Part shown: positions 22,636 to 41,835 of the stretch, piece by piece | Position numbering within the stretch: position 1 is the first letter of the stretch | Layout of the letters: each line of letters begins with the position of its first letter | Source of the DNA: a virus | Lineage: Duplodnaviria; Caudoviricetes | Length of the DNA: 64,000 nt | IMG/VR virus record: IMGVR_UViG_3300028667_000050 | Location: 16,957 to 80,956 of that record | Strand: one strand, 5' to 3' | Notes under the pieces: model-generated | Databases searched by the model: none | Told to the model about the DNA's origin: nothing | The model's input: only the letters and a program-made list of their open reading frames with translations | Translations under genes and position numbers: made by a program

Positions 22636-22684
22636 AAATGCTGGTAGGAGTATATGCTTGCTCTTACCAGCATTATTTTTTTTA
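22636..22684. terminator. Bidirectional terminator between convergent genes
   Basis: aaaaatgctggtaggag...ctcttaccagcatt-attttttt. Confidence 0.75.
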
Positions 22685-23227
22685 ATACTTTATTTCGGAA
22701 AATTCTTTCATTAAAATTTTTTTTACCCTTTTAATTTTATCCCGCATGGTGTTTCGCGGCATGCCAATTTTGTCCGCTATGGCTTCTTCATTTGCACCGT
22801 TCAATTTAAGAGTTCCAATAAGGGTTGACTGTGACATAAGCTCATTGGCGCTTTTGAGCAGCTGCTCAAAGATGACTTTGTTAGTGGCCAGCTCGTCTGT
22901 ACCTAAAGCGTTGTCATCAGGGATGATATCAAGTAAAGGAACTCTTTCTCCATCGTGGGTGTCCATGGGTTCATCCAAGGAACAAAACTTACCGGGCGTG
23001 GCGTATTGGCATAGTCCACAATGCCCATCACACTTCCAGAGAAGCTTGGTCGGGCAGATGCATTGCCCATGACTGCGGGCTTGTTTCTGTACTCGCCAGA
23101 TTTCTGGGTAGATGCCACGGTATACTTCTTCGGAAATTGGTATGAGGGTTATCTTGCGAGGATTATCGCAGTCTCTCATGGGGAAATACCTTTGTTTTTG
23201 TTGACGTTGGTTTTCTTTTTTTGCCAT
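22682..23227 (-). CDS. ECF-like sigma factor / sigma-70 region-4 regulator with Cys cluster
   Basis: C.CP..LLWKCDG.C..C, SLD, C-terminal HTH IA..IGMPRNTMR. Confidence 0.7.
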   Translation of the reverse strand: MAKKENQRQQKQRYFPMRDCDNPRKITLIPISEEVYRGIYPEIWRVQKQARSHGQCICPTKLLWKCDGHCGLCQYATPGKFCSLDEPMDTHDGERVPLLDIIPDDNALGTDELATNKVIFEQLLKSANELMSQSTLIGTLKLNGANEEAIADKIGMPRNTMRDKIKRVKKILMKEFSEIKY

Positions 23228-23670
23228 GTTGTTTTCTCCTTTTGGGACTATGCCCGAAGCGGAGATAACCTATATGGCTGCCAGAAATATTTTTCATAGA
23301 TGGTCACCTTTTGCGGATTATTCCGCTTCATAATTGGTGACCAGCAGTTCGTATGCTGGCACGATATTAAATTTATGACCATAACAACAACTACGAACGC
23401 ACCTCATGGCCATGGGGAAGGTGAGTTGCTGTTTAGGTAGGTAGATTAATGTCTTGCCTAGGACAAGACTGCAAAAGTGATAATTCAAATTTGCGATAAA
23501 ATATTTGCGAACGTGATGTAAATATTCACGTATACAGTAGAAAAATACATAACTATGTGCTATAATTAAAAAGTAAATTTGTCTCTAAAAATACTTTTTG
23601 TCAGAAAGCAGTGGTTTGCTGCTTCCAAAATTAAGTATAGAAAATTGGGCTGGTACGTTTGGGTACCGGC

Positions 23671-23710
23671 GGATATGCTCGGATATGATTGGATATGATT
23701 GGATATAGAG
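23671..23710 (+). repeat. Four tandem 10-nt units beginning GGATAT
   Basis: ggatatgctc ggatatgatt ggatatgatt ggatatagag; last unit overlaps the RBS. Confidence 0.85.
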
Positions 23711-23719
23711 GTGTTTAAA

Positions 23720-24856
23720 ATGACATTTAGTGAGTTTGCGCAGATTTTATACTCAGTGATTGGTTCCGGTAGCAACACCAGTGCCTTCGCTCGTACACTG
23801 CTTGATACCATTGTTATTTATGAGGATGAGGAGTTGAATCCGATTCAGGAATTAAAGCGTCCGACCTTCAAGGCATACTACAATGGAACAAACAACATCA
23901 CGAAAACAGCAAAAAAAATAAACGCCAATGTGGAGACATCAGCGTTTGAAGAATATATTGATACTTTCCCGGATAATGCTGTTCAAGCACTCTGCGGCGC
24001 TTTTGAAGAAGATATACCAGATATTACACCATATAATGCAAACCAGAAACTGGCAGAGTTGTTTGCTTCTATTATTTACGAAGCAGCCGCAGGAAAATCA
24101 AAGGATGTAGGTAAGAAGAAAATGAGCGAGGAAAAGACTACCTCCGTACATGGTAAACTGGCTGAGAAGGTTCTCCCTTCTGATGAGGCAATGGCAAAGG
24201 CAGGAGCAGTAGAGGAATTGGCGGAGGAACAAAAACGGCCTGCTAAAGCAAAAAGCGATCCTGTATTAAAGCCAAAATTGCTTTCCAGTGAGGATAATGC
24301 AATGCTCATAACGTTCAGAGAGAATGTAAAGGGCATTCTGAAATATTGCATAGAGCATGACCCAGCGGCTCAGCGAATTAGAATCAGTCTTGCAGATGAA
24401 TTACATGACGTATATAGGAAGTGGCAATATGACCTGCGTGAAATTGAGGATGATGCTTTTCGTCAGCTTGTAATAGACACAATACAGACGTTGGAGAAAT
24501 ATTCCTATTATGTATCCGATGTTTTTTTGCAACTGATTCCTGGAACTGATAAGCTGTGTTTTAGGAACGGATCTGCAGAAGAAGGAGACCGTTTAAGAGA
24601 TGTGCTTAGGCCGAAATCAAATGAATTGCGGCTTGCAATTGCAGAATTATATAGAAGACTGTATCCAATTAAGGAGGAGGCAAAGCCGGATGAGCCGGAG
24701 CTAGTCGAATCAGAGGTCGTGGATGAAGAATCATCCTGTGCCGCAGATACAACAGACAAGGACGCAAAGACTAAGACAATCAACAATCATACCACTGTAA
24801 ACCAGTATGGTGAAAAGAATGTTCATATAGACTATGTTGAAAATCTGAAACTATGA
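23720..24856 (+). CDS. Hypothetical protein: HTH-like N-domain, C-terminal RHIM-like motif
   Basis: MTFSEFAQIL N-terminus; ends TVNQYGEKNVHIDYVENLKL; TGCTATAAT promoter near 23557. Confidence 0.75.
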   Translation: MTFSEFAQILYSVIGSGSNTSAFARTLLDTIVIYEDEELNPIQELKRPTFKAYYNGTNNITKTAKKINANVETSAFEEYIDTFPDNAVQALCGAFEEDIPDITPYNANQKLAELFASIIYEAAAGKSKDVGKKKMSEEKTTSVHGKLAEKVLPSDEAMAKAGAVEELAEEQKRPAKAKSDPVLKPKLLSSEDNAMLITFRENVKGILKYCIEHDPAAQRIRISLADELHDVYRKWQYDLREIEDDAFRQLVIDTIQTLEKYSYYVSDVFLQLIPGTDKLCFRNGSAEEGDRLRDVLRPKSNELRLAIAELYRRLYPIKEEAKPDEPELVESEVVDEESSCAADTTDKDAKTKTINNHTTVNQYGEKNVHIDYVENLKL

Positions 24857-25509
24857 ACGGAGATGCACCTATGAAGAATGAATTGCAGATGGCAGCTAGC
24901 ATCAACACCTTGCCAGCAAAGACAGTAAATCAGTATGGTAAAAAGAATGTACATATTGATAAGGCCGAAAATGTAACACAGAATATAATCTTGAGTCTTC
25001 CATATGTGCAGAGAATGGCGAATGGAGCGATGCAGCCGACTAGCAGAGTTATCAATTCGGAATATTACAATTTGTTTGTGATTGGAGATGAGACCTTTGA
25101 ACACGACCATTTCCTTGTTCCGGCAGAACGGGCGCTATCAAAGGGCTGGACATCAGATAAAATAAGGGAACATTATGGAACGTTATCCGAAGAATCCATT
25201 GAGGTTATCAAAACATTTCCTGCGCTATTTATGCCAGAGGCGCAGTGGCAAAGTGCAAGACCTGGAGAAGGCCAACAGGTGTTCTTTGGTTTTGTGGATG
25301 GCATAAGAAAACAGGACAATGGAATAAAAATACAATGTCAGTTGATTTGGCCTATACCCATGCAGCAGATAAGCAATATTGGTTTTGAACTTGGCATGTT
25401 AAACATGACGAGGGAGATATCAGAAATGAATCACACCCATTGGGCTATCAAGCATATCAACTTGAAGGAAGAACTGACCGATGCACATATTTCTCTATTA
25501 GGATTCTGA
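24853..25509 (+). CDS. Hypothetical protein: N-terminal RHIM-like motif + FPALF...THWAIK domain
   Basis: ATGA overlap; alternative start 24871 with GGAG RBS; TVNQYGKKNVHIDKAENV. Confidence 0.75.
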   Translation: MNGDAPMKNELQMAASINTLPAKTVNQYGKKNVHIDKAENVTQNIILSLPYVQRMANGAMQPTSRVINSEYYNLFVIGDETFEHDHFLVPAERALSKGWTSDKIREHYGTLSEESIEVIKTFPALFMPEAQWQSARPGEGQQVFFGFVDGIRKQDNGIKIQCQLIWPIPMQQISNIGFELGMLNMTREISEMNHTHWAIKHINLKEELTDAHISLLGF

Positions 25510-25523
25510 CGGGAGGTGAAAGT

Positions 25524-27809
25524 ATGAGGGACAAACTTACGGCAGAAATAAGAAAACTGAGTTTGAATGATGCATCCTACAAAGGATGTGGGGTATCGAT
25601 TGTACCGACCTATGTGAACTTCTTCTTTGGTAATAATGGCACGGGAAAATCCACCATAGGTAAAGCGATAAAGGTAGATAACGGTGTAGAATGGCAGCAG
25701 GGGTACTTGGCTTCAGATTACAAAATACATGTTTATAATCTGGATTACATCAGCGCCAATTTGCACAACTACCATAATCTTCATGGCGTTTTTACTGTGA
25801 ATGAGGTTAATGTCACTATTCAGGCAAATGTCGATGAAAAGCTGGCACAAAAGGAAAAAGCGTCTACAGCTTTTGCTGAAGCTGGCGATGCGAAAACGAA
25901 GAAAACTTCCGCATTGCAAGAGGCATTGGAACGGTTCCAACAGGAATGCTGGGAGAAAACAACCGACCTACGTGCAAAATTCAGGAAAACACAAGTGAAC
26001 AGGATGCAAAAGAAATCATTCGCTGAAGGCGTGCTCGAAATCAAGAATCCTAAAGAGCACGATGTTGATGCTCTGCGTCGCCTCTATGATATAGCTTATT
26101 CTGACGATGCAAAAAAATATGAGCTATTTCCATCAGTTGCAAATCCAGCAGTTTTGGATGAACTTGAAGGCAGGGATATTCTTGGCAAGAGAATCGTGAG
26201 TAGCGCTGACACACCATTTGCTCAGTTCCTAAAGAAAATAAATGCGGCCAGTTGGGTGCAGCAGAGTCATGAGCAATTTCATAAAGCAGCAGGAAATACC
26301 TGCCCGTATTGCCAACAGCATTTGCCGGTTAGCTTTGAGGAGAATTTACGAGCCTGTTTTGATTCCAGTTATCAGGAAGCGCAACAAGCCCTGTCCTATT
26401 ATTATGATGCATACCGAAATGTTGCCAACACGATGGTAGCGCCGTTGTTTAAGCCACCTGTAGAGCTGATGCCTGAAATCAATATTACACCTTTCACAGA
26501 TAAGGTGGCCGCCATTAGGGGCGTTATTGCAACAAACCTGCAGAAGATAAAAGAAAAGATGAATGAGCCAGCAAGCGTTGTTGAAATTGAGAATGTGGCA
26601 ACAATGTTGGGTGAATTAAAAACTATCATTGCTGGTTTTAACACACTCATTAGAGAGAATAACGTTATCCTCGATACAAAGCAAAAAAAACAGGTAGAAT
26701 GCAGAATAGCTGTCTGGGAGCATATTGCTTTCTTGTTGGCTGACCAGATTAGTCGTTACAAGACAAGCAAGTCCTCCCTGGAGGATGAAATATCTAAGCT
26801 GATAACGGAGATTTCAACACAGCGAACAGCAATTAGTACACTGACACGTGAAATTGCTGAGCTCAATAAGGACTGTGTGAATACTACATCCACAATTGAG
26901 AGCGTAAATATGCTGCTTCGTGATTCCGGATTCCAAGGTTTTAGCCTTCGGGAAAAAGAAGGAACACTAAATGTTTATGAAGTAGTGAGGCCGGATGGAA
27001 CTATTGCTGAAAACCTGAGTGAAGGCGAGAGAAACTTTATAGCATTTCTGTACTTCTACCATCAGGTAAAGGGCAGTGATAATCCAGATGGCAGCCAGCT
27101 CGACAAAATTGTGGTGATTGATGACCCGGTATCAAGTATGGATAGCAGTGCACTATTTATCGTCAGCGCGCTGGTGCGTGAGATGATTCAGATTTGCGAG
27201 AATAATGCTGTGGGCAGTGAACTGGCAACGAAGGCAGACTATATCAAACAGATTTTCATTCTGACACATAACGCATATTTTCACAGGGAAATTACCTACA
27301 ACCAGGTGAAGAATTATTTGTTTGTGAATTTCTATTTGATAAGCAAGGTTGACAACAAGTCCTCCATCAAACTTTGTAAAAAAACTAACCCGGAAATCAT
27401 GACCGAGGAAATCAACTACAATTCGGTGCAAAATTCCTATGCGGCCCTCTGGGAAGAATATAAAGAAATCAATGCACCGATTCCTCTCATGAATGTCATC
27501 AGGCGAATACTGGAGTACTACTTCCTTCAGCTTTGCGGCTATGATGGAGTAACACTTCGTAAGCGGCTCTTAATTGATAATAAAGATAAGTTCATTACAA
27601 CAGACGCCAGCGGAAAAGAGAACTTCACTCAATACCAAATGGCGCATGCGATGCTTTCCTATATTTGCGCTAATTCAGTGGGTATCAATGATGGCATCAA
27701 TTTCGTAGATGACTGTGTAGATGTAGAACAAACGAAAAAAACCTTTAGTCTTGTATTTGCGTTAATGGAACAAAAGCAGCACTATGACATGATGATGGGA
27801 AATCAGTAA
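25524..27809 (+). CDS. RloC/SMC-like ABC ATPase (AAA_13) with zinc hook and HEPN-like C-terminus
   Basis: GNNGTGKST, CPYC, LSEGE, VVIDDPVSSMD, LTHN, NVIRRILEYYF. Confidence 0.88.
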   Translation: MRDKLTAEIRKLSLNDASYKGCGVSIVPTYVNFFFGNNGTGKSTIGKAIKVDNGVEWQQGYLASDYKIHVYNLDYISANLHNYHNLHGVFTVNEVNVTIQANVDEKLAQKEKASTAFAEAGDAKTKKTSALQEALERFQQECWEKTTDLRAKFRKTQVNRMQKKSFAEGVLEIKNPKEHDVDALRRLYDIAYSDDAKKYELFPSVANPAVLDELEGRDILGKRIVSSADTPFAQFLKKINAASWVQQSHEQFHKAAGNTCPYCQQHLPVSFEENLRACFDSSYQEAQQALSYYYDAYRNVANTMVAPLFKPPVELMPEINITPFTDKVAAIRGVIATNLQKIKEKMNEPASVVEIENVATMLGELKTIIAGFNTLIRENNVILDTKQKKQVECRIAVWEHIAFLLADQISRYKTSKSSLEDEISKLITEISTQRTAISTLTREIAELNKDCVNTTSTIESVNMLLRDSGFQGFSLREKEGTLNVYEVVRPDGTIAENLSEGERNFIAFLYFYHQVKGSDNPDGSQLDKIVVIDDPVSSMDSSALFIVSALVREMIQICENNAVGSELATKADYIKQIFILTHNAYFHREITYNQVKNYLFVNFYLISKVDNKSSIKLCKKTNPEIMTEEINYNSVQNSYAALWEEYKEINAPIPLMNVIRRILEYYFLQLCGYDGVTLRKRLLIDNKDKFITTDASGKENFTQYQMAHAMLSYICANSVGINDGINFVDDCVDVEQTKKTFSLVFALMEQKQHYDMMMGNQ

Positions 27810-27821
27810 AGGAGAAAGAAA

Positions 27822-28034
27822 ATGCGTATCAGTTATAACAAGCTATGGAAAATGCTAATAGATAAAGGTATGAAAAAAAGCGATTTGAAAGAGACTGCAG
27901 GAATCAGCTCGGCTTCAATTGCCAAGCTCGGTAAAGGAGAAAATATCACTACAGACGTTTTGATAAAAATTTGCGAGTCAATGAATTGCCATTTAGAGGA
28001 CATAATGGAGACAATCGAAGATGATGAGTCTTGA
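27822..28034 (+). CDS. Xre/Cro-C1 HTH regulator
   Basis: SYNKLWKMLIDKGM...IAKLGKGENITTDVLIKIC. Confidence 0.9.
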   Translation: MRISYNKLWKMLIDKGMKKSDLKETAGISSASIAKLGKGENITTDVLIKICESMNCHLEDIMETIEDDES

Positions 28035-28168
28035 TTACGGTACAGCGAAAGGAATAAGATTAATCAAATGTTATGATTCTGTAAGGAACTTGAAAAGCAT
28101 GCATTTGTCTCTTTTAAATCATAGGAATTCTATGCTTAAAATTCAACCTGCAATTACAGAAAGATGAG

Positions 28169-30616
28169 GTGAAAGTTGTGGCTTTATTGCAAGACCTAAT
28201 TCAACAAATAGATGATCCGGCACTTCGAAAAAGAATCCTACAGGAAACAGATAAATTAGTTAAGCAGAAGAAATTCGGACTGGTGTTTGAAGAGCATCTA
28301 CCTGAATGCACACCTCTTTACGATATGCCTATTCATGTGGGTTCAAAAGTGGCTTTGAAAACAGGATATGTAAAAGAAATTTATACAGTCTTGAAAATAG
28401 ATGGAGATGATATCCTGTGCGACGGGAGAGAAACACACGAGCATGTTTCTTTCAAAAAAACTGAAATAGTTGTGATAGCGGAATTTGGAGAGCCAATTTA
28501 TCCGACGTTGAAACCAATTGACTCTGTAGAAAACGCTCCTGATAGCGAATTGTGGCACACCCTGATTGAGGCAGATAATTATCATGCTCTTCAGCTATTG
28601 GAATATCTATATGCTGGAAAAGTTGATTGTATTTACATCGATCCGCCCTACAACACGGGTGCAAAAGATTGGAAATACAACAATGATTATGTTGATGGTT
28701 CTGATGCGTATAGGCATAGTAAATGGCTTTCTTTTATGGAAAAACGTTTAAAAATAGCTAAACGATTACTGAATCCTGCTACGGGAGTTATGATTGTAAC
28801 AATTGACGAACATGAAGTTCATCATCTTAGAGCATTATTGGAACAAATAATGCCAGAATTCTATATTCAAATGACAACATATGTTACAAATCCTAAGGGC
28901 GTTACTCAAGGTAGATTTTCACGGGTCGAGGAATATGCTTTGTATTGCTTCGCACCAAATGCTTTTGTATGTGAAGCTAAAGATAACCTTTTAAATCCTG
29001 TAGAAGAAGGTAGAAAACCTAGATGGAAAGGTTTGCTGCGCTCTGGAACAAATGCAAGAAGAGAAGATAGAAAAAACATGTTTTATCCTGTATACGTAGA
29101 TAAACAACATAAACGTGTTGTAGGTACTGGAACAAATCTACCTTATGAACAGCTACCAGATTTAGATATGAAGAGTGGAGAATATGAATTAGCGTGGCCT
29201 ATAAGGAGCGATGGAAGTTATGGTAACTGGGGAGTAGGGTATGAAACCCTTAGAAAATTAATAGACAAGGGGTATGTTTCTTTAGGTAAATACGATACAA
29301 CTAGAAAAACATGGGCAATCAGTTATATTAGTATCCCTAATCAAAAATTAATTGATGATGGGAATATTATTATTACTAGTAGAGACTCTAATACCGGTGT
29401 TGTAAATATAGAATATGCTAATTCAAATAACAGAGCTATTAAAACGGTTTGGTATAGAACGCTACATGATGCAGGAGCATATGGCACAGATTTAGTATCT
29501 TCAATTATAGGAAGGTCAAGAACATTTTCTTTTCCAAAGTCAGTCTATGCGGAAAAAGATGCCATATCAGCTGTTCTTAAAAACAATAAAAATGCGCTCA
29601 TAATAGATTTCTTTGCAGGTTCTGGAACAACTTTACATGCAGTAAATATTATGAATTACGAAGATGGTGGTAATAGAAGATGCATCCTTATTACAAACAA
29701 TGAAGTTTCAAATGATGAGGCAACGGAACTTAAAAAACAAGGTTTCCAAGCAGGAGATAGAGAGTGGGAAGAGCTTGGTATCGCACATTCTGTTACGTGG
29801 CCACGAACAAAAAATAGTATTTTAGGAAAACGTAAGGATGGTTCTGAACTCCAGAACGAGTATATAACATCTTTAAGCGAAAAAAAGTTTAAACAGCGAA
29901 AATTCATTCACGTTGGATATTTTAATAATATAAAAACAATGAATAAAAAAGATAAAAAAGCACTCATGTCTCTCTTTGCAAAAGGCATACTTCCACAGAA
30001 TTTAATTTCAGACGAAACAAAGTTCGTTGTATCTGACAATGAGAAACATAATATTTCTGTGTTGTTTGATGACGATTATGTTGATGAATGGCTAGATGCG
30101 CTGGACGAAATGTTTCATATAACAACTTTTTATATCTTTACAAAAAATAAAAGTAATTTTGATTCAATAAAAAATAAGATTGATATATTATTGGGTGATA
30201 TAGAAGAACAAGTACCCTTAAAAATTTCAATGAAAAATGGATTTAAAACTAATGCTCAATTTTTAAAACTAAGTTTCCTTGATAAAACATCTATAGCATT
30301 AGGAAGACAATTCAGAGAACTAATGCCTGTTCTATGGATGAAAGGCGGAGCTGTTGGTAAATGCCCTCTGCTGAAAAGTAATAGGTTACCCAAGATGCTC
30401 ATTATTCCCCAAAACAAGATGGCCGTTCTAATTGATGAAACCTGCTATTCGGAATTTGATGCGGAGTTATCCACTCACACAGAAATTCAAACAATTTTTA
30501 TTGTTACTGACTCCGAGAGCGCTTATCGGGAAATGATTCGCACCTATGACAATAAAGATTGCTATCAGCTTTACAGAGACTATTTGGATAATTTCCGTAT
30601 TAACACAAGGAGGTAA
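28169..30616 (+). CDS. Type III-like adenine DNA methyltransferase (Mod)
   Basis: KKFGLVFE, IEADNYHAL, IDPPYNTG, FPKS, DFFAGSGTT. Confidence 0.92.
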   Translation: MKVVALLQDLIQQIDDPALRKRILQETDKLVKQKKFGLVFEEHLPECTPLYDMPIHVGSKVALKTGYVKEIYTVLKIDGDDILCDGRETHEHVSFKKTEIVVIAEFGEPIYPTLKPIDSVENAPDSELWHTLIEADNYHALQLLEYLYAGKVDCIYIDPPYNTGAKDWKYNNDYVDGSDAYRHSKWLSFMEKRLKIAKRLLNPATGVMIVTIDEHEVHHLRALLEQIMPEFYIQMTTYVTNPKGVTQGRFSRVEEYALYCFAPNAFVCEAKDNLLNPVEEGRKPRWKGLLRSGTNARREDRKNMFYPVYVDKQHKRVVGTGTNLPYEQLPDLDMKSGEYELAWPIRSDGSYGNWGVGYETLRKLIDKGYVSLGKYDTTRKTWAISYISIPNQKLIDDGNIIITSRDSNTGVVNIEYANSNNRAIKTVWYRTLHDAGAYGTDLVSSIIGRSRTFSFPKSVYAEKDAISAVLKNNKNALIIDFFAGSGTTLHAVNIMNYEDGGNRRCILITNNEVSNDEATELKKQGFQAGDREWEELGIAHSVTWPRTKNSILGKRKDGSELQNEYITSLSEKKFKQRKFIHVGYFNNIKTMNKKDKKALMSLFAKGILPQNLISDETKFVVSDNEKHNISVLFDDDYVDEWLDALDEMFHITTFYIFTKNKSNFDSIKNKIDILLGDIEEQVPLKISMKNGFKTNAQFLKLSFLDKTSIALGRQFRELMPVLWMKGGAVGKCPLLKSNRLPKMLIIPQNKMAVLIDETCYSEFDAELSTHTEIQTIFIVTDSESAYREMIRTYDNKDCYQLYRDYLDNFRINTRR

Positions 30617-30618
30617 AT

Positions 30619-33483
30619 ATGAAGGTAGAATTATTTCCATTTCAAAAAAGAGCTCTCGCTGACATTCGTATGAAAACAGCGGAAGCATTGGGCAGTTACC
30701 ACAGAACCCATGCTCCGCAGGTAGTATCCTTTACTGCTCCTACTGGCGCAGGCAAAACAATCATTATGGCTTCTTTGATTGAAAGCCTTTTCTTTGGCGA
30801 TGAGTCATACTCAGAACAGCAGAATGCCGTTGTTATTTGGCTTTCAGATTCTCCACAACTAAATGAACAATCAAAATTAAAAATCGATTCAAAGGCAGAT
30901 AAAATTAGTCTTGGACAGTGTGTAACTGTTAGCGAAGATTCTTTTGACAAGGAGTTCTTTGAAGATGGGCATATATATTTTTTAAATACACAAAAGTTAT
31001 CAAAAACATCAAACTTAACAAAGAATGGTGATGGTCGCTCCTATACCATTTGGCAAACCATCGCTAATACCATTCGCGAAAAAGGAAATCGTCTCTACTT
31101 CATTATAGATGAAGCCCATCGTGGTATGCAGGGACGAGAGGCTGGTAAAGCCACAACCATCATGCAAAAGTTCCTCAAAGGTAGTATTGAAGATGACATT
31201 CCTCCGATGCCAGTGGTAATTGGCATGTCTGCAACAACACAACGATTCAATGCATTGGTTGAAGGAACTTCCTCCACAATCCATAAATTCGTAGTTTCAG
31301 CTGATGAAGTGCGTGCATCTGGCCTTTTAAAGGATAGAATTGTTATTACCTATCCAGAAGAAGGTGCTGCGAATAAAGATATGGCTATACTGCAAGCAGC
31401 AGCGGATGACTGGAAAGAAAAATGGGATCATTGGACACAGTACTGCTATGAGCAACACTATGCTTATGTAAATCCCGTTTTAGTTGTACAAGTATTGAGT
31501 GGTAGTGGCAGCAATTTATCTGACACAGATTTGGATGATTGTTTAAGTAAAATAGAAGAACGTACTGGAATCAAATTTGAAGCAGGACAAGTTGTTCATA
31601 CTTTCGGGCAGACAAACGCCTCTATTCAAATTAATGGTCTTGAAGTTTGCTATGAAGAGCCTTCTAGAATTGCTGAAGACCGAAATATACGTGTAGTGTT
31701 CTTTAAAGAAAGTCTTTCTACAGGATGGGATTGCCCTCGTGCTGAAACCATGATGTCATTCAAACACGCAAATGATGCAACCTATATTGCACAACTACTT
31801 GGGCGCATGGTTAGAACGCCAATGCAGATGCATATTCAAGTGGATGATGTATTAAACGATGTCCATTTATATTTGCCATACTTCAATGAAGAAACTGTAA
31901 AGGAGGTTGTAGATGCATTGCAAAGTGCCGAAGGTGGTGACATTCCTACAGATATATATGGCGAATCGCTGACAGGCAGAAAATTTGAAACGCTAACTGT
32001 AAAGTCGAAGAATAAAAGAAAAATTCAGGAAATTCTCGGTCGAATGTCTCTTGATGATTTCGACTCTGGTAATACTAATACTGATTTTAACATAAACAAT
32101 GGTACACAAAAACCAATTAATACTACAACTCATGAAGCTAAGAATATTTCACCAGAAGGTTCTGATACATCTAATGATGAAAAAAAATACACAGAAGAAA
32201 CTACAGTAGTGCCAACTTCAAATACTATTGGCACATCTATGCTTACAGAGACACAAAAAGATGTGCCAATCATCGAAAACAATGAAGCTACCATAAACAC
32301 TGCTGAAGCTACTGAAGAACTATTTGACCGTGAAGCTGTAATGAAATTTATTAATGATGCTGGGCTTTTATCCTATGATGTTAGAGCTGTTCGCATTAGC
32401 AACTATTTAGTTTCTTTATTTAAAATGGCTCACCTACTCACTATGTCTGGTCTTCAGCGTGAAGCGATTCGAGAAATCCAATCAGAAATCGTTCAAATGA
32501 TATATGACCATGTTGAAATGCTCAAAGCCAAAGATAAATATGACGATCTTGTCCTACAAGTAAAGCAATTTAAGTTGGTCACACAGATTTTTGATGCTTT
32601 TGGTGAAACAGTAGCCAATTATTCTGTACACGACCTATTCACAACAACAGATTCTGATATCGACAGGCAATTTCGTGTAGCAGACAGTAAACTCTGCAAC
32701 GAAGGCATTGGCAATGTATATGGTAATAAATACATGGATATAAATAATCCAAGTGCTTTTAAAGTTGATGTTATTCTGTTTGTTGCAGACGTGGAATGCA
32801 TGAATAGCCTTTACCAATATGCCGAGGCAAGATTTCACGGATTGAATGATGAATATCGTAGATACATTGCTACAGTTAATTCGGAAAAAATAAGAAAACA
32901 ATATGATAGCATTGTCTCGGATGGTGATGACGTAAGTAAGCATAACTTCAGACTTCCTGAAACAATTCAAGTTCCTTACGAAGATGGCGGAAAAGAATAT
33001 GCAGATCATCTTTTTATAAACGATGCTTCGGGAGTCGCAAAGTTAAAGCTAAATACATGGGAAGAAGGAGTTATTTCGGAGGAAGAAAGACGAGATGATT
33101 TTGTATGCTGGATCCGCAACCCTTCTCGCGGTACATGGCCTCTTTGTATTCCATATGAGATAGATGCTATTCCTAAACGTACTTATCCGGATTTTATCAT
33201 TATTAGAAAAGACAAAATTTCTAAATATGTTATTGATATTCTTGAACCACACAATCCGGAATTTAAAGACAATCTTGGCAAAGCAAAAGGATTTGCAGAA
33301 TATGCCAGACAAAATCCCGGTGTTGGAAGAATTCAGCTTATTCGTATGTGCAAAGATGCTGCGGGAAATAATCGATTCAAACGTCTTGATATGTCCAAAA
33401 GTTCAGTCAGAGACAAAGTTTCTCGTGTAATGAGCAACGATGAATTAGACCACGTATTTGATACTGATGGTTTCTTCGCGTGA
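30619..33483 (+). CDS. Type III-like restriction helicase/endonuclease (Res)
   Basis: APTGAGKT, DEAH, GWDCPRA, QLLGRMVR, YPDF...LEPH nuclease motif. Confidence 0.9.
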   Translation: MKVELFPFQKRALADIRMKTAEALGSYHRTHAPQVVSFTAPTGAGKTIIMASLIESLFFGDESYSEQQNAVVIWLSDSPQLNEQSKLKIDSKADKISLGQCVTVSEDSFDKEFFEDGHIYFLNTQKLSKTSNLTKNGDGRSYTIWQTIANTIREKGNRLYFIIDEAHRGMQGREAGKATTIMQKFLKGSIEDDIPPMPVVIGMSATTQRFNALVEGTSSTIHKFVVSADEVRASGLLKDRIVITYPEEGAANKDMAILQAAADDWKEKWDHWTQYCYEQHYAYVNPVLVVQVLSGSGSNLSDTDLDDCLSKIEERTGIKFEAGQVVHTFGQTNASIQINGLEVCYEEPSRIAEDRNIRVVFFKESLSTGWDCPRAETMMSFKHANDATYIAQLLGRMVRTPMQMHIQVDDVLNDVHLYLPYFNEETVKEVVDALQSAEGGDIPTDIYGESLTGRKFETLTVKSKNKRKIQEILGRMSLDDFDSGNTNTDFNINNGTQKPINTTTHEAKNISPEGSDTSNDEKKYTEETTVVPTSNTIGTSMLTETQKDVPIIENNEATINTAEATEELFDREAVMKFINDAGLLSYDVRAVRISNYLVSLFKMAHLLTMSGLQREAIREIQSEIVQMIYDHVEMLKAKDKYDDLVLQVKQFKLVTQIFDAFGETVANYSVHDLFTTTDSDIDRQFRVADSKLCNEGIGNVYGNKYMDINNPSAFKVDVILFVADVECMNSLYQYAEARFHGLNDEYRRYIATVNSEKIRKQYDSIVSDGDDVSKHNFRLPETIQVPYEDGGKEYADHLFINDASGVAKLKLNTWEEGVISEEERRDDFVCWIRNPSRGTWPLCIPYEIDAIPKRTYPDFIIIRKDKISKYVIDILEPHNPEFKDNLGKAKGFAEYARQNPGVGRIQLIRMCKDAAGNNRFKRLDMSKSSVRDKVSRVMSNDELDHVFDTDGFFA

Positions 33484-33793
33484 TGTGGTACAGTTAAAAC
33501 CAGTAAGGTGTTTATATCAAGGATAGAAGCTGACGCTTTATGATGATTAGCTCGGAATTCTACTACGAGGAATTCCTCAACTGTAAAAGTAAAAACGTAT
33601 TAAATAAAACATTTTACGTAGTTACAAGCATGAAAATATTTTCTTATTTATAGTTTTAAAAACCGGTCATTAAGCAAAACATATTGCTCTATAGCTCGAG
33701 TTTATGGGAAAAGGGACATAAATTTCTAAAACTCGTAAATTTAAAAGCACGATTTTATGCGCCTTACAGCCTTCCATATTTTCAGAATTAACT

Positions 33794-34174
33794 GTTGAAA
33801 TGTTCCCACAAGCGCTAAATAGCGTAATTTTAAGACGTTAAATGCGAGAGCTCGTTCCAAGTGGGCAAGATGGATGTCAAGGGAATATGTCGACTGTAAA
33901 AGTATAAAGAAGTATCAAAAAGCACATTTTTACTTAGTTTTAAGTGAGGAAATATTCCCCAAGAGCGTTTTGGAAATGTTTCCTCATTTATAGCCCCAAA
34001 AACCGGACATCAAGCGAAACGTATCGTTCCATGTTGAGACGGTAGTATTGATGTCAAGGGTAAAAGAATAAGGGTAATAAGAAGCCTGTAAATAAAGGCT
34101 TTCCGGGGGTTTAGAGCAAAAATCTGATTTGTTAGAATCGTGAAAATATCTGTTCGTGGGAACAAGTCCAAAGG
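33794..34174. other. rlmD: Cluster of rlmD/rumA 3'-end attachment-site scars
   Basis: VEMFPQA (33794+), LEMFPH (33970+), HVETVVLMSRVKE* (34030-34071+), degenerate copy 33853-33883, PLDLFPRT (34174-34151 -). Confidence 0.7.
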
Positions 34175-34316
34175 TATGATTTTGAACGTGACAGAGCGAT
34201 TTAGATAACATGGGTTTGCGTGTGGTCGATTTAGATTACATCGGCTTGCAGTGGTCAATTTAGATGTTTTACATATTTACACCTTTGCAGTATGCTTGTT
34301 ATAAAGGTGGGGGAGA

Positions 34317-35540
34317 ATGGAGGTATTCCTATTGCAATTTTTTGATAGTTTATACAACTTGATTAACATCGATGTCAAAACAACAATTCTCATCTTGTTC
34401 TGGGGCAATTTGTTCTTTCTGATGATGGCATTTGCTTTTTTAATAAGCAACACTCACATATCTGAGAAGGAGCTGTTTAAAAAATTTATCTTTTCCAAAC
34501 TGGTGCAGGCTCTGGGTTGGATTGCTTTCGCATTTCGGGGACAAATCCCTGAAATAGTTTCGGTAAACTTGGGTAATTCACTTCTTTATTTTGGGTTTTA
34601 TCTTGAGTCCATGGCTTTGATTACGATAACAAAGGACATCACATCAATTATTAATCGGATTCAATTCGGGATAATGTTAGCTGGGGTTGTCACTTTCAAT
34701 TTTATAGTTATATGTGGTGCATCACCTAGTTATTGGGTGGGTGTAGCGTCAGTAATTATAATATCCATATATCTGATCCCTGCCATTGCCTATGTTTTTA
34801 ACAAAAACGGCAGCCAGTTCAAACGATTTCTGGGAAGTTTACAACTAATGATATGCATTGCGATGGTGTTCCGAGCAACAATAGGTTTTATGAATAAAAG
34901 TGTATCACTATTATCAAACAATTTTGTGCAATCGGTCACATTTTTGATTTTTATATTTTTAATGATGATTAACAGCAGCGGATTCATGTTAATGATATAC
35001 GAAAGCGTTAATGACCAATTAAAAAAACTTGCCAACATGGATCCCTTGACACATGTAAAAAACCGAAGAAATTTTATGGAAACCGCTTCAACTTATTTTA
35101 GTTTTTGCAAGCGTCAGAATTTGCCATTGTCTTTTCTTTTCATCGATATCGACTATTTCAAAAAAATTAATGACCAATTTGGACATCAGGTAGGAGATGA
35201 AGCACTAATTCAAACTGCAGAAATTATATCAAAAAACATTCGCGAATCAGATATTTGCGGCAGATATGGCGGGGAGGAGTTTGTCGTTTTGCTTCCCGAT
35301 ACCGATTGTCAGACGGGAATCGAAGTGGGTAACCGGATTAGAAAAATTATAGAAAATACTCCTTTTCATGAGAAGGACACCATAAAATTCACTGTTAGCA
35401 TAGGATTGTTTTCTGATATTCCTAAAACAGATGGCGATTTGGATAAATTCATAGCCAACAGCGATAATGCCATGTATAAAGCAAAAAGGACAGGCAGAAA
35501 CCGCTTGTGCGTCTATGATCCGACTTTTGTGACAGATTGA
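34317..35540 (+). CDS. Membrane-bound diguanylate cyclase (GGDEF)
   Basis: About 7 TM segments; DPLT, NRR, DIDYFKKINDQFGH..GDEAL, RYGGEEF, ADNAMY-like motif. Confidence 0.93.
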   Translation: MEVFLLQFFDSLYNLINIDVKTTILILFWGNLFFLMMAFAFLISNTHISEKELFKKFIFSKLVQALGWIAFAFRGQIPEIVSVNLGNSLLYFGFYLESMALITITKDITSIINRIQFGIMLAGVVTFNFIVICGASPSYWVGVASVIIISIYLIPAIAYVFNKNGSQFKRFLGSLQLMICIAMVFRATIGFMNKSVSLLSNNFVQSVTFLIFIFLMMINSSGFMLMIYESVNDQLKKLANMDPLTHVKNRRNFMETASTYFSFCKRQNLPLSFLFIDIDYFKKINDQFGHQVGDEALIQTAEIISKNIRESDICGRYGGEEFVVLLPDTDCQTGIEVGNRIRKIIENTPFHEKDTIKFTVSIGLFSDIPKTDGDLDKFIANSDNAMYKAKRTGRNRLCVYDPTFVTD

Positions 35541-35586
35541 TGATATTTTAAATCCTATGGGATATTAGACAATCAAGTGAAACAAT

Positions 35587-35620
35587 AAAAAAGCTCTGCC
35601 GACCGTAATGGTTAGCAGAG
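35587..35620. terminator. Terminator between convergent GGDEF and recombinase genes
   Basis: aaaaagctctgccgacc-gtaat-ggttagcagagttt. Confidence 0.7.
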
Positions 35621-35640
35621 TTTCGTGTTATATGGAATTA

Positions 35641-37204
35641 TTACTCAATATCCACCATCAAGCCGGACTTAAATTCCACGGTGAATTTGTCCTCGTAGAC
35701 AGTGACCTTTTCAATCAGCCGCCTGACAAGCGTCTCGTCATATTGGGCTAGGCCAATTGGTTGCTCCTTAAGAAATGCGCTCATGTCGGTGATACGTTTT
35801 TGCATTTCATCCCGGCCGAGGTTCTCGACCTGAGCCTTTTGCTTCTCCTCACGTAGGCGATAGATTTCATCGCCGACCTTCTCGTAGTCAGCCTTTGAGC
35901 TGGCGAGCTTCAAGAGCTCTGCTTGAAGTTCTGTAAGCCGTTTATCGATTGCGGTAAGGGTATGACTGTTTTCGTGACAAATTACGGTTTCAATATTTTT
36001 CTGCAGCGTGATGAGAAAATGGTCTTTATCACATAATGCTTGATTGATGGCCGTGACCATCACTTGCTCTAAGGTGCTCTCAAGTACCGTTCGGGCCTCG
36101 CAGAACAAGCCTGTGTTTTCTAGACGGCTGACGCACCTCCAGACTATGGACTTCTTACCTCGGTTGTTCCAGTGGACCCTCCGGAACACCTCACCGCAGC
36201 CGCCACAGATAATCATGTTAGAGAAACAGTGAATGCAACTGAAGGTCCTGTTCTTGCCGTTCGGGCTGGTATGGACGATGCGGCGTTGGATGAGCTCTTC
36301 CTGCACCTGCATGAATATTTCACGCGGGATAATGGCTTCGTGGCTATTTTCTACATAATACTGCGGTACGACGCCGTGGTTCTTTACTCGAGTCTTTGTG
36401 AGGAAGTCCGTAGTATAGGTTTTCTGCAACAGGGCATCTCCAATATACTTTTCGTTTCGCAAAATCTGATTGATATTGCTGGTATGCCATTTTTCATTTC
36501 CAGCACCATTAAGAATGCCGTCTGCTTCAAGACCACGCTTGATTTTCAGCATGCTGGCACCTTCGAGGTATTCCCGGTAGATGCGCTTTATGATTTCTGC
36601 TTCCTCAGGGACAACGATCAGGCGCTTATTATCATCCTTTGTAAACCCGAGGAAGCGGTTGCAGTTGACCTGGATTTCGCCCTGCTGGTAGCGGTACTGA
36701 AGCCCCAGCTTCACGTTCTGGCTGAGGGGACTGGCTTTCCTGTTGTGCAAGAGAAGCCATAATGGTGAGCATGACCTCGCCCTTGGAATCCATGGAGTTG
36801 ATGTTTTCCTTTTCGAAGTAAACCGGGATATTCTTGTCCTTGAGCTGCCGGATGTATTGCAGGCAGTCAAGAGTATTGCGGGCAAATCGGCTGATGGATT
36901 TGGTGATGACCATGTCGATGTTACCGGCCATACACTCGTCGATCATACGGTTGAATTCCGTACGCTTCTTTGTGTTGGTGCCGGAGATGCCGTCATCGGC
37001 GAAGATTCCTGCCAGCTGCCAGTCTGGATTTTTGGCAATATAGTCGGTATAGTGTTCGATCTGCGCCGCATAGCTGGAGGCCTGTTCTTCGCTATCTGTG
37101 CTGACGCGGCAGTAGGCTGCGACACGAAGCTTTGGCCGTTCTTCTTCCAGAATATTATTTCCCATACGTCGCTTTGCTGGAATAATCATGACTTTGGACT
37201 CCAT
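35641..37204 (-). CDS. Large serine recombinase (extra C near 36735 splits the frame)
   Basis: [30 protein letters not shown], zinc ribbon ICGGCG...WRC. Confidence 0.9.
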
Positions 37205-37619
37205 TAGCTCACCTCCGTTTTTATCAGGCTGTAGAGATATTCTGCTTGCAGCAAGGGATTGATTTCTTCTACTGTAGGTTCGAGCATATAAAAGTGATTC
37301 GGAATTTTGGCACTATCGGAGCTTTGGCCTTATTAAGCCGGCCTAGTTTTTCCGCGCGTTTAATCAGCATAGCGGCGGCCTGATCAAAGATCTTTTCGTC
37401 CAGAATAGCTGGATAAAAGGCATCGCCGAGATAATGCCGATTTTGTAGGACCCGTTTGGCGGATCCATGGTAAGGCGTAAAGCCGGCTTTCTTTGCCGCG
37501 GCTGTGAGCCCCATGCCGGCCAGGTAGTCGGCAAAAAATTGTTTCACAGCGTCTGCCGTGGTATCGTCTATTACGGCTACGCCGTTTTCCAGGCGGTAGC
37601 CATAGGGAATAAGCTTCAT
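37204..37619 (-). CDS. Short recombinase-domain protein (middle gene of the trio; indel near 37305)
   Basis: [22 protein letters not shown]; restored C-terminus QAEYLYSLI. Confidence 0.8.
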
Positions 37620-37623
37620 AAAA

Positions 37624-39179
37624 TCAAATCCTTTCGCGTAGGGTAAGGCCGCACTTGAGTTGAAAGCCGACTTCCTGGCGGTTGTATATAATGACCTTCA
37701 CGGCATATTCTTCAAAAAAGCTTTCCTTGAAGCTATGCTGGATGGGCGTGTGCAGCGTGAAATATAAGAGCCGTTTAAGCTCCGCCAACTGCTCGGTACT
37801 TTTGCCACCGCTCTTTTGCAGGGCCGTAAGTTCTTTATTGTAGGTGTTCGCCTGTGTTTGCAGCTCATTGCTTTGCTGTGTAAAAATGACCTGATCCAGA
37901 TACTTATCAGCCATCAGGCGCTGTAGCGTATGCTTCTGTTCCGTGATTTTCATTAGCTCAGTTTCCAGTTCTCGGATGCGGTGGATCGTATCATCGGCAC
38001 TGTAGATTTTCATCTTTTCAATCAAGGGTGTCAGGATAATCTTCCGGGCGTAGATGAGTTTATTAATCATGGCCGCAAAGGCTGCTTCTAATTGGTCGTT
38101 GCGGATATAGAGCATGGAGCAGGCGTTTTTATCTTGAATGTGCGTGTTGCAGCACCAAGCGACGTAGCGATTACCGGTGCTGGCATGGATGCGCCGACGA
38201 AAGGTGTCCCCACATTCGCTACAGATGATTTTTCCAGAAAAGGCATAGTGATTATTATGCTTAGGATCGCCTTTTTTATTGCCCTTTTCCTGGCGGTGCT
38301 GTGCGAGTAGCTTCTGCGCCTGCGCAAAGCTTTCATGGCTGATAATTGCATCATGGTGCGCAGCATAGAAATATTGATCACGCTCGCCAGTATTGACCTT
38401 TTTCTTATAGCTGTCGTCCATATAGGTCTTTTGAAAAATGGCATCACCGGTATACTTCTCATTGATGAGAATATTGGTAATGGCTGCATGCTGCCATTTA
38501 TTCTTGCGTTTGGTAAGAATACCGCGGTTATTCAGTTTTCGGATGATACTCCTGACGCTCTTGCCGACAAGGTAGTCGGCAAATATTTCTTTCACTACAG
38601 CGGCCTGTTCAGGATTTACGCGTAGCTCTTTCCCGTCCCAATCATAGCCATAGGGTGGGTAGCTTAGTTTATAGTTTCCCTTTTTGAAGCGTTGCCTGAT
38701 TGACCACTTGATGTTTTTGGATGTGGAAGCAGATTCATCTTGGGCCAGTGAGCTCATGATGGAGAGAAGTAGCTCGCTTTCCATGGTCTGTGTATTCAAA
38801 TTTTCCTTCTCAAAGTAGATGGGGATATTCAGTTCCTGAAGGTGCCGTACAATCTCCAGGCAATCCGTTGTATTGCGAAAGAGGCGACTGAGCGACTTCG
38901 TGACGACCAGATCAATTTGCCGGCTTTCACAATCGGCGAGAAGTTTCAGGAGGCCGGCCCGCTGATTCATCTTGGTGCCCGTGATGCCTTCATCAAAATA
39001 TATATCAGCCAGTTCCCAATCACTACGGGCATTGATATAGTTTTTGTAGTAGCTCCTTTGGGTATCCAGACTCTCGAGCTGTGCATCGCTAGCCGTAGAT
39101 ACACGGCAATATGCCGCTACACGTAGTTTTTTCGTTTGGCTGGTGTTTCTACTGGCGGAATGGTAGTCATCTTTTTCAA
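37624..39179 (-). CDS. Large serine recombinase (missing A near 39130)
   Basis: Restored [25 protein letters not shown], zinc ribbon ICSECG...WCC. Confidence 0.9.
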
Positions 39180-39228
39180 CGGGTTCATCTCCTTCGGTAG
39201 TATCACATATTACCTCTGAATGAGATGA

Positions 39229-39474
39229 TTAGCCAGTTGTATTTTGCATAATTTCAAATAAAAATGGCCGGAAGGTTTCCCGGTTGAGCTGTGCGATTTC
39301 ACTGAACTCCTGTGCAGATAGCAGGTCAGCTTCCCGTAAGGCATGGAGAAGTTCTTGGGCTTTGTGGTAGCCACAATCACGTTGCAACTGTTCGTTGGTG
39401 GGGCCCGTTGGCTTTTCAGTGAGTTGCAGGGGATTTTTTGTTAATGGCTGTAGAATTTTTTGTACGTTGTTCAT
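39229..39474 (-). CDS. SHOCT-like small protein preceding the recombinases
   Basis: GGAGG RBS; LLSAQEFSEIAQLNRETF. Confidence 0.7.
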   Translation of the reverse strand: MNNVQKILQPLTKNPLQLTEKPTGPTNEQLQRDCGYHKAQELLHALREADLLSAQEFSEIAQLNRETFRPFLFEIMQNTTG

Positions 39475-39503
39475 AGGATCCTCCAATCTGAAGGTTACCC
39501 TTC

Positions 39504-39540
39504 ACTATCCTATGGAGCTGAAGGCATGCTTTTGACGAAA
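39504..39540 (-). promoter_or_regulatory. Element-specific motif TTTCGTCAAAA-N12-CTCCA-N3-GATAGT, copy A
   Basis: Identical spacing in three copies. Confidence 0.75.
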
Positions 39541-39636
39541 AATATATCAATTTATTTTTAGAGACGTTTTGCTTCGGCAAGCGTCTTTTTTTTCCCTTAT
39601 AAGAGTGCGCCGAGCTTTTGAAAAAATTTAAAAACC

Positions 39637-41822: not shown

Positions 41823-41835
41823 GGAGGATGCTGAG

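What the first reader, a model, noticed from the sequence alone, without database searches (positions are those of the whole stretch)
23720..27809. Adjacent genes share an 18-aa RHIM/amyloid-like motif and are coupled to an SMC-like ABC ATPase: candidate new signalling/defence system
Seen: ORF1 ends with TVNQYGEKNVHIDYVENL (24794-24847) and ORF2 begins with TVNQYGKKNVHIDKAENV (24922-24975), 14/18 identical. Five of the shared residues use different synonymous codons (act/aca, aac/aat, gtt/gta, ata/att, gac/gat), so the peptide rather than the DNA is being conserved. The genes overlap by ATGA and the ATPase starts 14 nt after ORF2. Established: RHIM cores read (I/V)Q(I/V)GxxN (RIPK1/RIPK3). Fungal HET-s/NWD2 and bacterial BASS pairs put the same amyloid motif at the C-terminus of one gene and the N-terminus of its neighbour. 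Three-gene effector/adaptor/SMC-ATPase layouts occur in Lamassu and ABC-three-component systems. Inference: the motif templates co-assembly of ORF1 and ORF2 downstream of the ATPase sensor, with no NLR involved. The output could be abortive infection or inactivation of an ORF1 repressor that controls the divergent sigma gene and hence prophage induction.
Basis: partly seen in the sequence, partly recalled or inferred. Interest (0 to 1): 0.92.

Follow-up and report, generated by a model that had tools for sequence, protein, structure and literature searches.

The report
Matched peptide tags couple prophage proteins
Two neighbouring prophage genes end and begin with the same short, co-evolving asparagine/glutamine/glycine-rich peptide, which replaces a covalent link found in related fused proteins and looks like the amyloid-type tags that join sensors to effectors in known cell-death and anti-phage systems.

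Summary
ORF1 (23720-24856) ends, and ORF2 (most likely 24871-25509) begins, with an 18-residue motif that is 14/18 identical. In 30 diverged homologous loci the two tags match each other even where the tag differs completely between loci (0 of 10000 permutations). Synonymous sites are saturated, so the peptide is what is conserved. Relatives exist in which the ORF1-type N-domain is covalently fused to the ORF2 globular domain, mostly without any tag, so the tag pair replaces a peptide bond. ORF1's N-domain also occurs in a canonical ABC-3C/Lamassu effector. ORF2's domain also occurs fused to TIR.

The downstream ATPase is an RloC-like AAA_13 protein (PADLOC PDC-S06). It is present in about 50 of 59 evaluable loci, so it is not obligatory. 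The pair always heads a variable defence-cargo operon in one temperate-phage family.

The tag is not a RHIM. Amyloid behaviour is inferred, not shown.

My reading is a new variant of amyloid-signalling (BASS-like) gene pairs. A common docking site is the main rival explanation.

The scan reached the same reading for this family on other DNA (e1-3343946).

The parts
23720..24856 (+). ORF1 (378 aa). Residues 1-126 form the 'type A' helical N-domain, in the effector position. Then come a K-rich linker, a helical middle region (about 185-315), an acidic linker and the C-terminal tag.
   Evidence: P0121. PADLOC LmuA PDLC03857 E=3e-23 on residues 8-149 of the 385-aa read. The model has pLDDT about 90 for residues 1-126 and is low elsewhere. 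The same N-domain occurs with CTD11 next to MC7 and DUF2326.
24794..24847 (+). C-terminal 18-residue N/Q/G-rich tag of ORF1
   Evidence: pLDDT is below 50 in the model.
24871..25509 (+). ORF2 (212 aa; an alternative in-frame ATG lies at 24853). It has a disordered N-terminal 38 residues that carry the tag, followed by a beta-rich globular domain.
   Evidence: 236 homologues, about 211 aa each. (pLDDT below 50 for residues 1-38, pTM 0.70).
24922..24975 (+). N-terminal 18-residue tag of ORF2, 14/18 identical to the ORF1 tag
25048..25506 (+). ORF2 globular domain (residues 60-212). It is a mobile conflict-system domain with a possibly PUA-like fold.
   Evidence: VIA-align top hits are all PUA-like readers (PH1033, VcaM4I, YTH, McrB-NTD, THYN1, ASCH), Z 4.4-6.3. 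Atlas matches reach TM 0.55-0.58 to TIR- or FRG-containing clusters. P0135 is AbiJ_NTD3 + this domain (40% identity, 1e-30) + TIR_2. The exhaustive search found 412 representative clusters.
25524..27809 (+). RloC-like AAA_13 ABC ATPase (761 aa) with a coiled-coil insert and a CPxC zinc hook
   Evidence: PF13166 E=4e-117, covering the whole protein. PADLOC PDC-S06 E=2e-201, LmuB 4e-16. Invariant Walker A, C260/C263, R660, D723, H753. Its homologue in phage Javan105 is annotated 'ACNase RloC'.
27822..28034 (+). Small Cro/C1-type HTH (70 aa). It is conserved after the ATPase in 8 of the 31 dereplicated loci. It may be a controller of the R-M system or of the operon.
   Evidence: PF13443 E=3e-18. 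Cluster c16.
28169..33483 (+). Type III restriction-modification system (mod 28169-30616, res 30619-33483). This is variable defence cargo downstream.
   Evidence: Other loci carry type I R-M, SNF2+DUF4391 or BREX at this position.
22682..23227 (-). Divergent sigma-70 region-4-like gene. It is the constant neighbour of the pair across the phage family.
   Evidence: phrog_13787 E=2.5e-25. NCBIfam sigma hits. Clusters c9/c30/c34.

Best explanation
ORF1 and ORF2 are the two halves of a split sensor-effector immunity protein, carried as the first genes of the lysogenic or defence-cargo operon of a temperate-phage family of Clostridia and streptococci.

ORF1 supplies an effector-position N-domain, here the helical 'type A' domain that canonical ABC-3C/Lamassu effectors also use. 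In most relatives this is a different 'type B' domain. ORF2 supplies a beta-rich sensor or adaptor domain that is fused to TIR effectors elsewhere.

The two halves are joined by a homotypic tag of about 18 residues, with the skeleton phi-N-Q-x-G-x-x-N-phi-x-I-x-x-phi. It sits on flexible tails, at the ORF1 C-terminus behind an acidic linker and at the ORF2 N-terminus.

Shown:
- The tags co-evolve residue for residue.
- They are under peptide-level selection.
- They replace a covalent linker seen in fused relatives.

Inferred:
- Because the two partners need the same sequence, the tags most likely pair in register as parallel beta-strands, that is an amyloid-type or beta-arch stack as in HET-S/NWD2, BASS and Bab/Agp.
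- On this view, clustering of ORF2 on its trigger would template the ORF1 tail and switch on or concentrate the ORF1 N-domain, giving abortive infection or superinfection exclusion.
- The RloC-like AAA_13 ATPase encoded 14 nt downstream is a frequent, probably cooperating partner. It may nucleate clustering through its zinc-hook dimers. It is not an obligatory component.
For: - Co-variation: own-pair score 53.1 against 28.0 for cross-pairs, 0 of 10000 permutations.
- Per-column identity within pairs far above random pairing over positions -5 to +12. At +5 it is 0.74 against 0.19 expected.
- Synonymous saturation: 138 same-codon positions observed against 132.6 expected.
- The 16-mer scan at score 30 found only the two tags in each scanned locus. 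A stop codon separates the genes in all 61 loci.
- Tails are disordered in monomer models.
- Core composition is N+Q+G 36% against 16% background, and charged residues 12% against 25%.
- Rosetta-stone fusions: 15-16 clusters fuse the type B domain to the ORF2 domain and one fuses type A to it. Most carry no tag in the linker.
- Multi-partner sharing: in L051 and L072 a second ORF2 paralogue carries the same tag.
- Conflict-system pedigree: the type A domain occurs with CTD11, followed by MC7 and DUF2326. The ORF2 domain occurs between AbiJ_NTD3 and TIR_2.
- Precedent: an antiphage amyloid pair with a non-NLR sensor, Bab/Agp (bioRxiv 10.1101/2024.11.07.622273).
- Within-pair identity of 43-56% is typical of BASS pairs (bioRxiv 10.1101/2020.01.06.895854). 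Here the mean is about 59%.
Against: - No experiment or model shows that the tags touch, form fibrils or template each other.
- Tag-less covalent fusions show that a permanent link between the two domains is compatible with function, so a regulated switch is not required.
- No activity is known for either ORF1-type N-domain. Fold and sequence searches gave nothing.
- The trigger sensed by ORF2 is unknown, and the PUA-like fold assignment is only Z 5-6.
- Tag-bearing loci usually have the ATPase, whereas 4 of 4 tag-less fusions lack it. That pattern would also fit docking of the tags on the ATPase.
- The constant position next to the phage's sigma-like gene leaves a core regulatory role open.
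Confidence: 0.55

Rival explanations
1. Common-receptor docking. The two tags do not touch each other. Each binds the same pocket on a symmetric or shared third surface. That surface would most plausibly be the two heads of the dimeric RloC-like ATPase, or the ORF2 globular domain itself (own tag in cis as autoinhibitor, ORF1 tail in trans as competitor). The tags look alike because they share a receptor.
For: - Tag-bearing loci carry the AAA_13 ATPase in about 50 of 59 cases, plus L072. Four of four tag-less fusions lack it.
- ORF2 and the ATPase are 14 nt apart.
- Canonical ABC-3C effectors dock through C-terminal domains (review PMC10586767).
Against: - The tag pair persists where the ATPase is absent, a remnant or frameshifted: L011, L015, L018, L020/21, L025, L052, L003, L060, L035.
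- The N/Q/G-rich, low-charge composition and the very free drift of the tag between clades are typical of self-complementary beta motifs rather than pocket ligands.
- The ATPase tally is phylogenetically non-independent and small.
Confidence: 0.2
2. Static beta-zipper tether. The tags pair one-to-one, as a two-stranded or hairpin docking element like split-protein docking domains. They simply hold ORF1 on ORF2 all the time, with no templating, polymerisation or switching.
For: - Tag-less covalent fusions work with a permanent link.
- The tag core is only about 18 residues.
Against: - A heterodimeric docking pair does not need identical sequences on both sides. Strict homotypy points to in-register stacking.
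- Sharing among three proteins in L051 and L072 also points to in-register stacking.
Confidence: 0.15
3. Core phage regulator rather than defence. The ORF1-ORF2 unit, split or fused, controls the divergent sigma-like gene or the downstream cargo operon, for example as an anti-sigma or lysogeny-maintenance module. The tag would mediate assembly of that regulator.
For: - The unit always sits first in the operon divergent from the sigma-like gene, in every locus with upstream sequence, whatever cargo follows.
- It is usually followed by a small HTH.
Against: - There is no DNA-binding or anti-sigma domain in ORF1 or ORF2.
- The type A domain is an ABC-3C effector-position domain.
- The ORF2 domain is fused to TIR and AbiJ_NTD3.
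- PADLOC LmuA hit.
Confidence: 0.1

Closest known systems
Bab/Agp (BASS11) abortive-infection pair of E. coli ECOR25 (Ibarlosa et al., bioRxiv 10.1101/2024.11.07.622273)
   Same: - Adjacent genes in a prophage defence island.
- A tag of about 20 residues at the C-terminus of a small helical effector protein and at the N-terminus of the next, sensor-type protein.
- The sensor is not an NLR.
- The tag is the only similarity between the two proteins.
   Different: - The sensor here is a 150-residue beta-rich domain, not TPR-GreA/B-C-PIN.
- The effector N-domains (type A and type B) are unrelated to Bell.
- The tag family is different.
- The hosts are Clostridia and streptococci.
- There is a frequent third gene, an RloC-like ABC ATPase.
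- Amyloid formation and antiphage activity are shown for Bab/Agp and not shown here.
BASS1-10 Bell/NLR pairs and fungal HET-S/NWD2 (Dyrka et al., bioRxiv 10.1101/2020.01.06.895854)
   Same: - Matching terminal motifs in adjacent genes.
- Within-pair identity in the same range or higher.
- N/Q/G plus hydrophobic composition.
- Covalently fused 'all-in-one' relatives exist.
   Different: - No NB-ARC or NACHT NTPase.
- Not in multicellular lineages.
- The RHIM/BASS3 signature G-phi-Q-phi-G is absent (0 of 62).
ABC-3C / type II Lamassu (LmuA-LmuC-LmuB; Krishnan et al. 2020, cited from PMC10586767)
   Same: - Gene order effector, small middle component, coiled-coil ABC ATPase.
- ORF1's N-domain is homologous to that of a CTD11-bearing effector that sits next to MC7 and DUF2326.
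- PADLOC LmuA hit.
   Different: - No ABC-3C CTD or MC Pfam family in ORF1 or ORF2. The CTD is replaced by the short tag.
- The ATPase is AAA_13/PDC-S06, not DUF2326/LmuB.
- The ATPase is dispensable for the pair.
RloC/PrrC restriction-linked ABC ATPases
   Same: - AAA_13 architecture over the full length.
- CPxC zinc hook in a coiled-coil insert.
- Linkage to type III R-M (window) or type I R-M (other loci).
- RAST annotation 'ACNase RloC' for the Javan105 homologue.
   Different: - No demonstrated anticodon-nuclease motif. The PrrC HMM matches only the ATPase part.
- No tag-bearing partner genes have been described for RloC or PrrC (from my knowledge; not found in searches).

Membership tests
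Amyloid signalling gene pairs (BASS / FASS sensu Saupe, Dyrka) | The same short motif at the C-terminus of one protein and the N-terminus of the protein encoded by the adjacent gene | tested here: met
   Present in all 60 loci that have both termini.
Amyloid signalling gene pairs (BASS / FASS sensu Saupe, Dyrka) | Motif conserved within pairs, with co-variation across pairs | tested here: met
   Score 53.1 against 28.0, 0 of 10000 permutations, synonymous sites saturated.
Amyloid signalling gene pairs (BASS / FASS sensu Saupe, Dyrka) | Receptor side is an NLR (NB-ARC/NACHT) or another oligomerising sensor | tested here: not met
   There is no NLR domain. ORF2 is a 212-aa protein with no Pfam hit. 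Oligomerisation is unknown. Bab/Agp shows that the NLR is not obligatory.
Amyloid signalling gene pairs (BASS / FASS sensu Saupe, Dyrka) | The motif forms cross-beta fibrils, behaves as a prion and cross-seeds its partner | not testable with these tools
   Only composition and disorder in monomer models are available.
RHIM / PP / BASS3 | Core G-phi-Q-phi-G, or (I/V)-Q-(I/V)-G | tested here: not met
   0 of 62 and 1 of 62 motifs. Only Q-phi-G occurs, in 31 of 62.
ABC-3C / Lamassu | LmuB-type (DUF2326/SMC-like) ABC ATPase | tested here: not met
   The best fits are PF13166 AAA_13 (4e-117) and PDC-S06 (2e-201). The LmuB HMM gives only 4e-16 in two stretches.
ABC-3C / Lamassu | Effector with an ABC-3C C-terminal domain (CTD1-12), and a middle component of an MC family | tested here: not met
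   No CTD or MC Pfam hit in ORF1, ORF2 or 31 upstream homologues. The N-domain alone is shared with the CTD11 protein P0132.
ABC-3C / Lamassu | Gene order effector - middle component - ABC ATPase in one operon | tested here: met
RloC-like AAA_13 / PADLOC PDC-S06 | Full-length AAA_13 match, coiled-coil insert with a CxxC zinc hook, and linkage to R-M | tested here: met
RloC-like AAA_13 / PADLOC PDC-S06 | C-terminal anticodon-nuclease catalytic residues | tested here: inconclusive
   R660, D723 and H753 are invariant in the C-terminal region. There is no alignment to a characterised ACNase. The PrrC HMM covers only the ATPase part.
PUA-like (EVE/YTH/ASCH) fold for the ORF2 domain | Structural similarity over the whole domain | tested here: inconclusive
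   Z 4.4-6.3, 102-127 residues aligned, rmsd 3.5-4.6 A, and all top hits are PUA-like. Foldseek gives E of 0.009 or worse.

The most novel reading that the evidence does not exclude
The tag pair is a true prion-like amyloid switch gated by an ABC ATPase. Zinc-hook-mediated clustering of the RloC-like ATPase on its trigger (for example damaged or foreign DNA, or a disabled R-M system) would bring ORF2 N-termini together. That would nucleate a cross-beta seed which templates the ORF1 tail and fires the effector. This would be a new ATPase-gated class of amyloid signalling, widespread in gut Firmicute prophages.
Probability: 0.2. Interest if true: 0.9.

Novelty: new variant of a known kind. Interest (0 to 1): 0.72.

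Why it matters
Amyloid-type signalling between adjacent genes has been documented for NLR pairs in fungi and multicellular bacteria, and for one E. coli pair. This family would add four things:
- unicellular Clostridia and streptococci, and their temperate phages;
- two new effector-position domains and a new sensor domain that is also wired to TIR;
- a natural series of split, partly split and fused forms, which shows directly what the tag is for;
- a possible link to RloC-type ATPases and restriction systems.

The tag diversity, at least ten mutually dissimilar tag types on one scaffold, is a ready-made specificity panel for testing how such tags avoid cross-talk. Cultured hosts exist: Streptococcus constellatus Javan prophages, Acetobacterium, Clostridium grantii and Evtepia gabavorous.

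Tried and rejected
- Complex prediction of ORF2 with the ORF1 tail gave no verdict (score 0.00). This is not evidence either way.
- Foldseek and VIA-align searches with the ORF1 model returned only generic helical matches.
- Profile searches of type A and type B alignments against PDB sequences found nothing significant.
- The ATPase has no solved relative by sequence.
- The language-model lead that the type B domain is Peptidase C39-like (0.91) was not confirmed. The candidate Cys and His are conserved in 19/21 and 17/21 sequences only, and no C39 structure was hit.
- Pfam and PADLOC give nothing for type B or for ORF2.
- DNA-level repeat or gene conversion is rejected.
- An assembly frameshift that splits one gene is rejected. 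A stop separates the genes in all 61 loci, and their relative frames and spacing vary.
- A third tag copy in the window was not found.
- Krishnan et al. 2020 (ABC-3C) could not be read, so its content is cited second-hand from PMC10586767.

Full report
**Observation.** ORF1 (ATG 23720 to stop 24856, 378 aa) ends with an 18-residue motif at 24794-24847. ORF2 carries a 14/18-identical motif at 24922-24975. The ATPase starts at 25524, 14 nt after the ORF2 stop. One detail needs correction. The ATGA overlap uses an in-frame ATG at 24853, but the conserved start is ATG 24871. That codon has GGAG 8 nt upstream, is the gene-caller start of P0001, and gives the N-terminus MKNELQ shared by homologues.

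**Is it more than chance?** ORF2 has 236 homologues of about 211 aa. A scan of one genome per species returned 61 loci. In every locus where both termini are present, the upstream protein's C-terminus matches the ORF2 homologue's N-terminus, even where the tag is wholly different from the window's.
- In 31 dereplicated pairs the best own-pair 16-mer scores 53.1 (9.4/16 identical), against 28.0 for cross-pairs. No permutation out of 10000 reaches the observed sum.
- Anchored on the conserved glycine, within-pair identity exceeds random pairing from -5 to +12. At the variable position +5 it is 0.74 against 0.19.
- At 283 identical-residue positions, 138 share the codon, against 132.6 expected from codon usage. 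Synonymous sites are saturated, so the similarity is maintained on the peptide.
- The 16-mer scan found only the two tags in each scanned locus, 95-167 nt apart. Two loci nonetheless hold a third, more diverged tag, described below. A stop always separates the genes.

**What the proteins are.**
- ORF1's first ~126 residues form a confidently predicted helical domain. The rest of the model, including the tail, is low-confidence.
- This 'type A' domain hits PADLOC LmuA PDLC03857 (3e-23). It recurs in P0132 together with PF20277 CTD11. P0132 is followed by an MC7 protein and a DUF2326 ATPase, which is a canonical ABC-3C/type II Lamassu operon.
- Most other loci have an unrelated 'type B' N-domain of about 230 aa, with no Pfam or PADLOC hit. 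A C39-peptidase-like lead from language-model features was not confirmed.
- In both types the domain is followed by an acidic linker (median 27% D+E) and then the tag.
- ORF2 has a disordered N-terminal 38 residues carrying the tag and a beta-rich domain.
- The best structural matches of that domain are uniformly PUA-like nucleic-acid readers, but only at Z 4.4-6.3.
- In the ESM Atlas it aligns to TIR- and FRG-containing clusters at TM 0.55-0.58.
- P0135 has the domain (40% identity, 1e-30) between AbiJ_NTD3 and TIR_2.

**Rosetta stones.** An exhaustive search with the ORF2 domain found 412 representative clusters.
- Fifteen to sixteen of the long ones are covalent fusions of the type B domain to the ORF2 domain, and one (P0175) fuses type A to it.
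- Most fusions have a plain linker without any tag. Four keep one copy.
- The tag pair therefore does the job of a peptide bond between the same two domains.
- In L072, a one-tag fusion is followed by a second ORF2 paralogue whose N-terminus matches that tag. In L051, ORF1, ORF2 and a second paralogue all share the tag.

**Context.** The window is part of an IMG/VR provirus.
- Split or fused, the unit is always the first gene or genes of an operon divergent from a sigma-70 region-4-like gene. That gene heads the DUF2800, Enc34-SSB and PolA module of one temperate-phage family.
- The family includes Streptococcus phage Javan105.
- What follows the unit varies. Usually it is an optional HTH_17 and then the AAA_13 ATPase with type I or type III R-M. 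Other loci have HsdM/S directly, SNF2+DUF4391 or BREX.
- About 50 of 59 evaluable split loci have the ATPase, two have remnants and seven have none.
- Four of four tag-less fusions lack the ATPase, whereas the one-tag L072 has it.

**The ATPase.** It matches PF13166 over its full length and PADLOC PDC-S06. It has an invariant CPxC pair in its coiled-coil insert and invariant R660, D723 and H753 in the C-terminal region. Its homologue is annotated RloC in Javan105. No anticodon-nuclease motif could be verified.

**Mechanism.**
- Shown: the two tags co-evolve, are selected as peptides, lie on flexible tails, and substitute for a covalent link between an effector-position domain and a sensor-type domain that both occur in conflict systems.
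- Inferred: partners that must carry the same sequence most simply pair in register as parallel beta-strands. The core composition supports this (N 18%, N+Q+G 36% against 16% background, few charges, almost no proline). So does the layout, which is that of amyloid signalling pairs.
- I therefore favour homotypic beta assembly of ORF1 with ORF2, probably of the templating kind, giving an abortive or exclusion response. I put this at 0.55.
- Rivals: both tags dock on one receptor, either the ATPase dimer or the ORF2 domain (0.2); a static one-to-one beta-zipper (0.15); a core phage regulator acting on the sigma-like gene (0.1).
- The complex prediction gave no verdict.

**Comparison with known systems.**
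- The tag is not a RHIM or BASS3. G-phi-Q-phi-G occurs in 0 of 62 motifs.
- It is not a Lamassu member. The ATPase is AAA_13, and ORF1 and ORF2 have no CTD or MC family. It does share the gene order and an effector N-domain.
- It works like BASS or Bab/Agp pairs, but with new tags, new domains, a new host range and a frequent ABC ATPase neighbour.
- I found no description of it in the held literature.
- The scan itself reached the same reading for this family on another genome (e1-3343946), and it has noted analogous matched-tag pairs elsewhere.

**Verdict.** This is a new variant of a known kind, with interest 0.72.

Noticed in passing
L051:2062-2712 and L072:2922-3599: A second ORF2-like paralogue directly after ORF2 (L051) or after a one-tag fusion protein (L072). 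It carries the same locus-specific tag at its N-terminus, so three proteins or modules can share one tag.
   Followed up: partly
window 25524-27809: The AAA_13 ATPase has an invariant CPxC pair (C260/C263), like the Rad50/RloC zinc hook. It also has invariant R660, D723 and H753 in its C-terminal region, a possible catalytic set that I could not align to a known anticodon nuclease.
   Followed up: partly
window 27822-28034: A 70-aa Cro/C1-type HTH is conserved directly after the ATPase in 8 of the 31 dereplicated loci. It lies just before the type III mod gene and may be a controller protein. Most other loci instead have an HTH_17 ('VrlI-like') between ORF2 and the ATPase.
   Followed up: partly
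window 34317-35540: A GGDEF diguanylate cyclase gene (407 aa) sits among the prophage's cargo, between the type III R-M and the integrases.
   Followed up: no
window 35641-36885 and 37624-38970: Two large serine recombinase genes lie on the minus strand. The first shows Recombinase and zinc-ribbon domains but no Resolvase N-terminal hit, so it may be truncated.
   Followed up: no
window 22682-39600 versus L013, L065 etc.: In the window, the DUF2800/SSB/PolA module (40106-43976, + strand) is not adjacent to the sigma-like gene, as it is in other family members. This fits an inversion or rearrangement of the sigma-to-integrase block.
   Followed up: partly
window 24270-24664 (ORF1 residues about 185-315) and L034:3644-4993: A helical middle region of ORF1 recurs as an insertion in one type B protein (L034) and is absent from the short type A proteins (L003, L006, L008, L017). 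It is therefore an optional third module of unknown role.
   Followed up: no
L035, L048, L057, L003, L060: In several loci the ATPase gene is split into two frames or reduced to a remnant, while the tag pair stays intact.
   Followed up: partly
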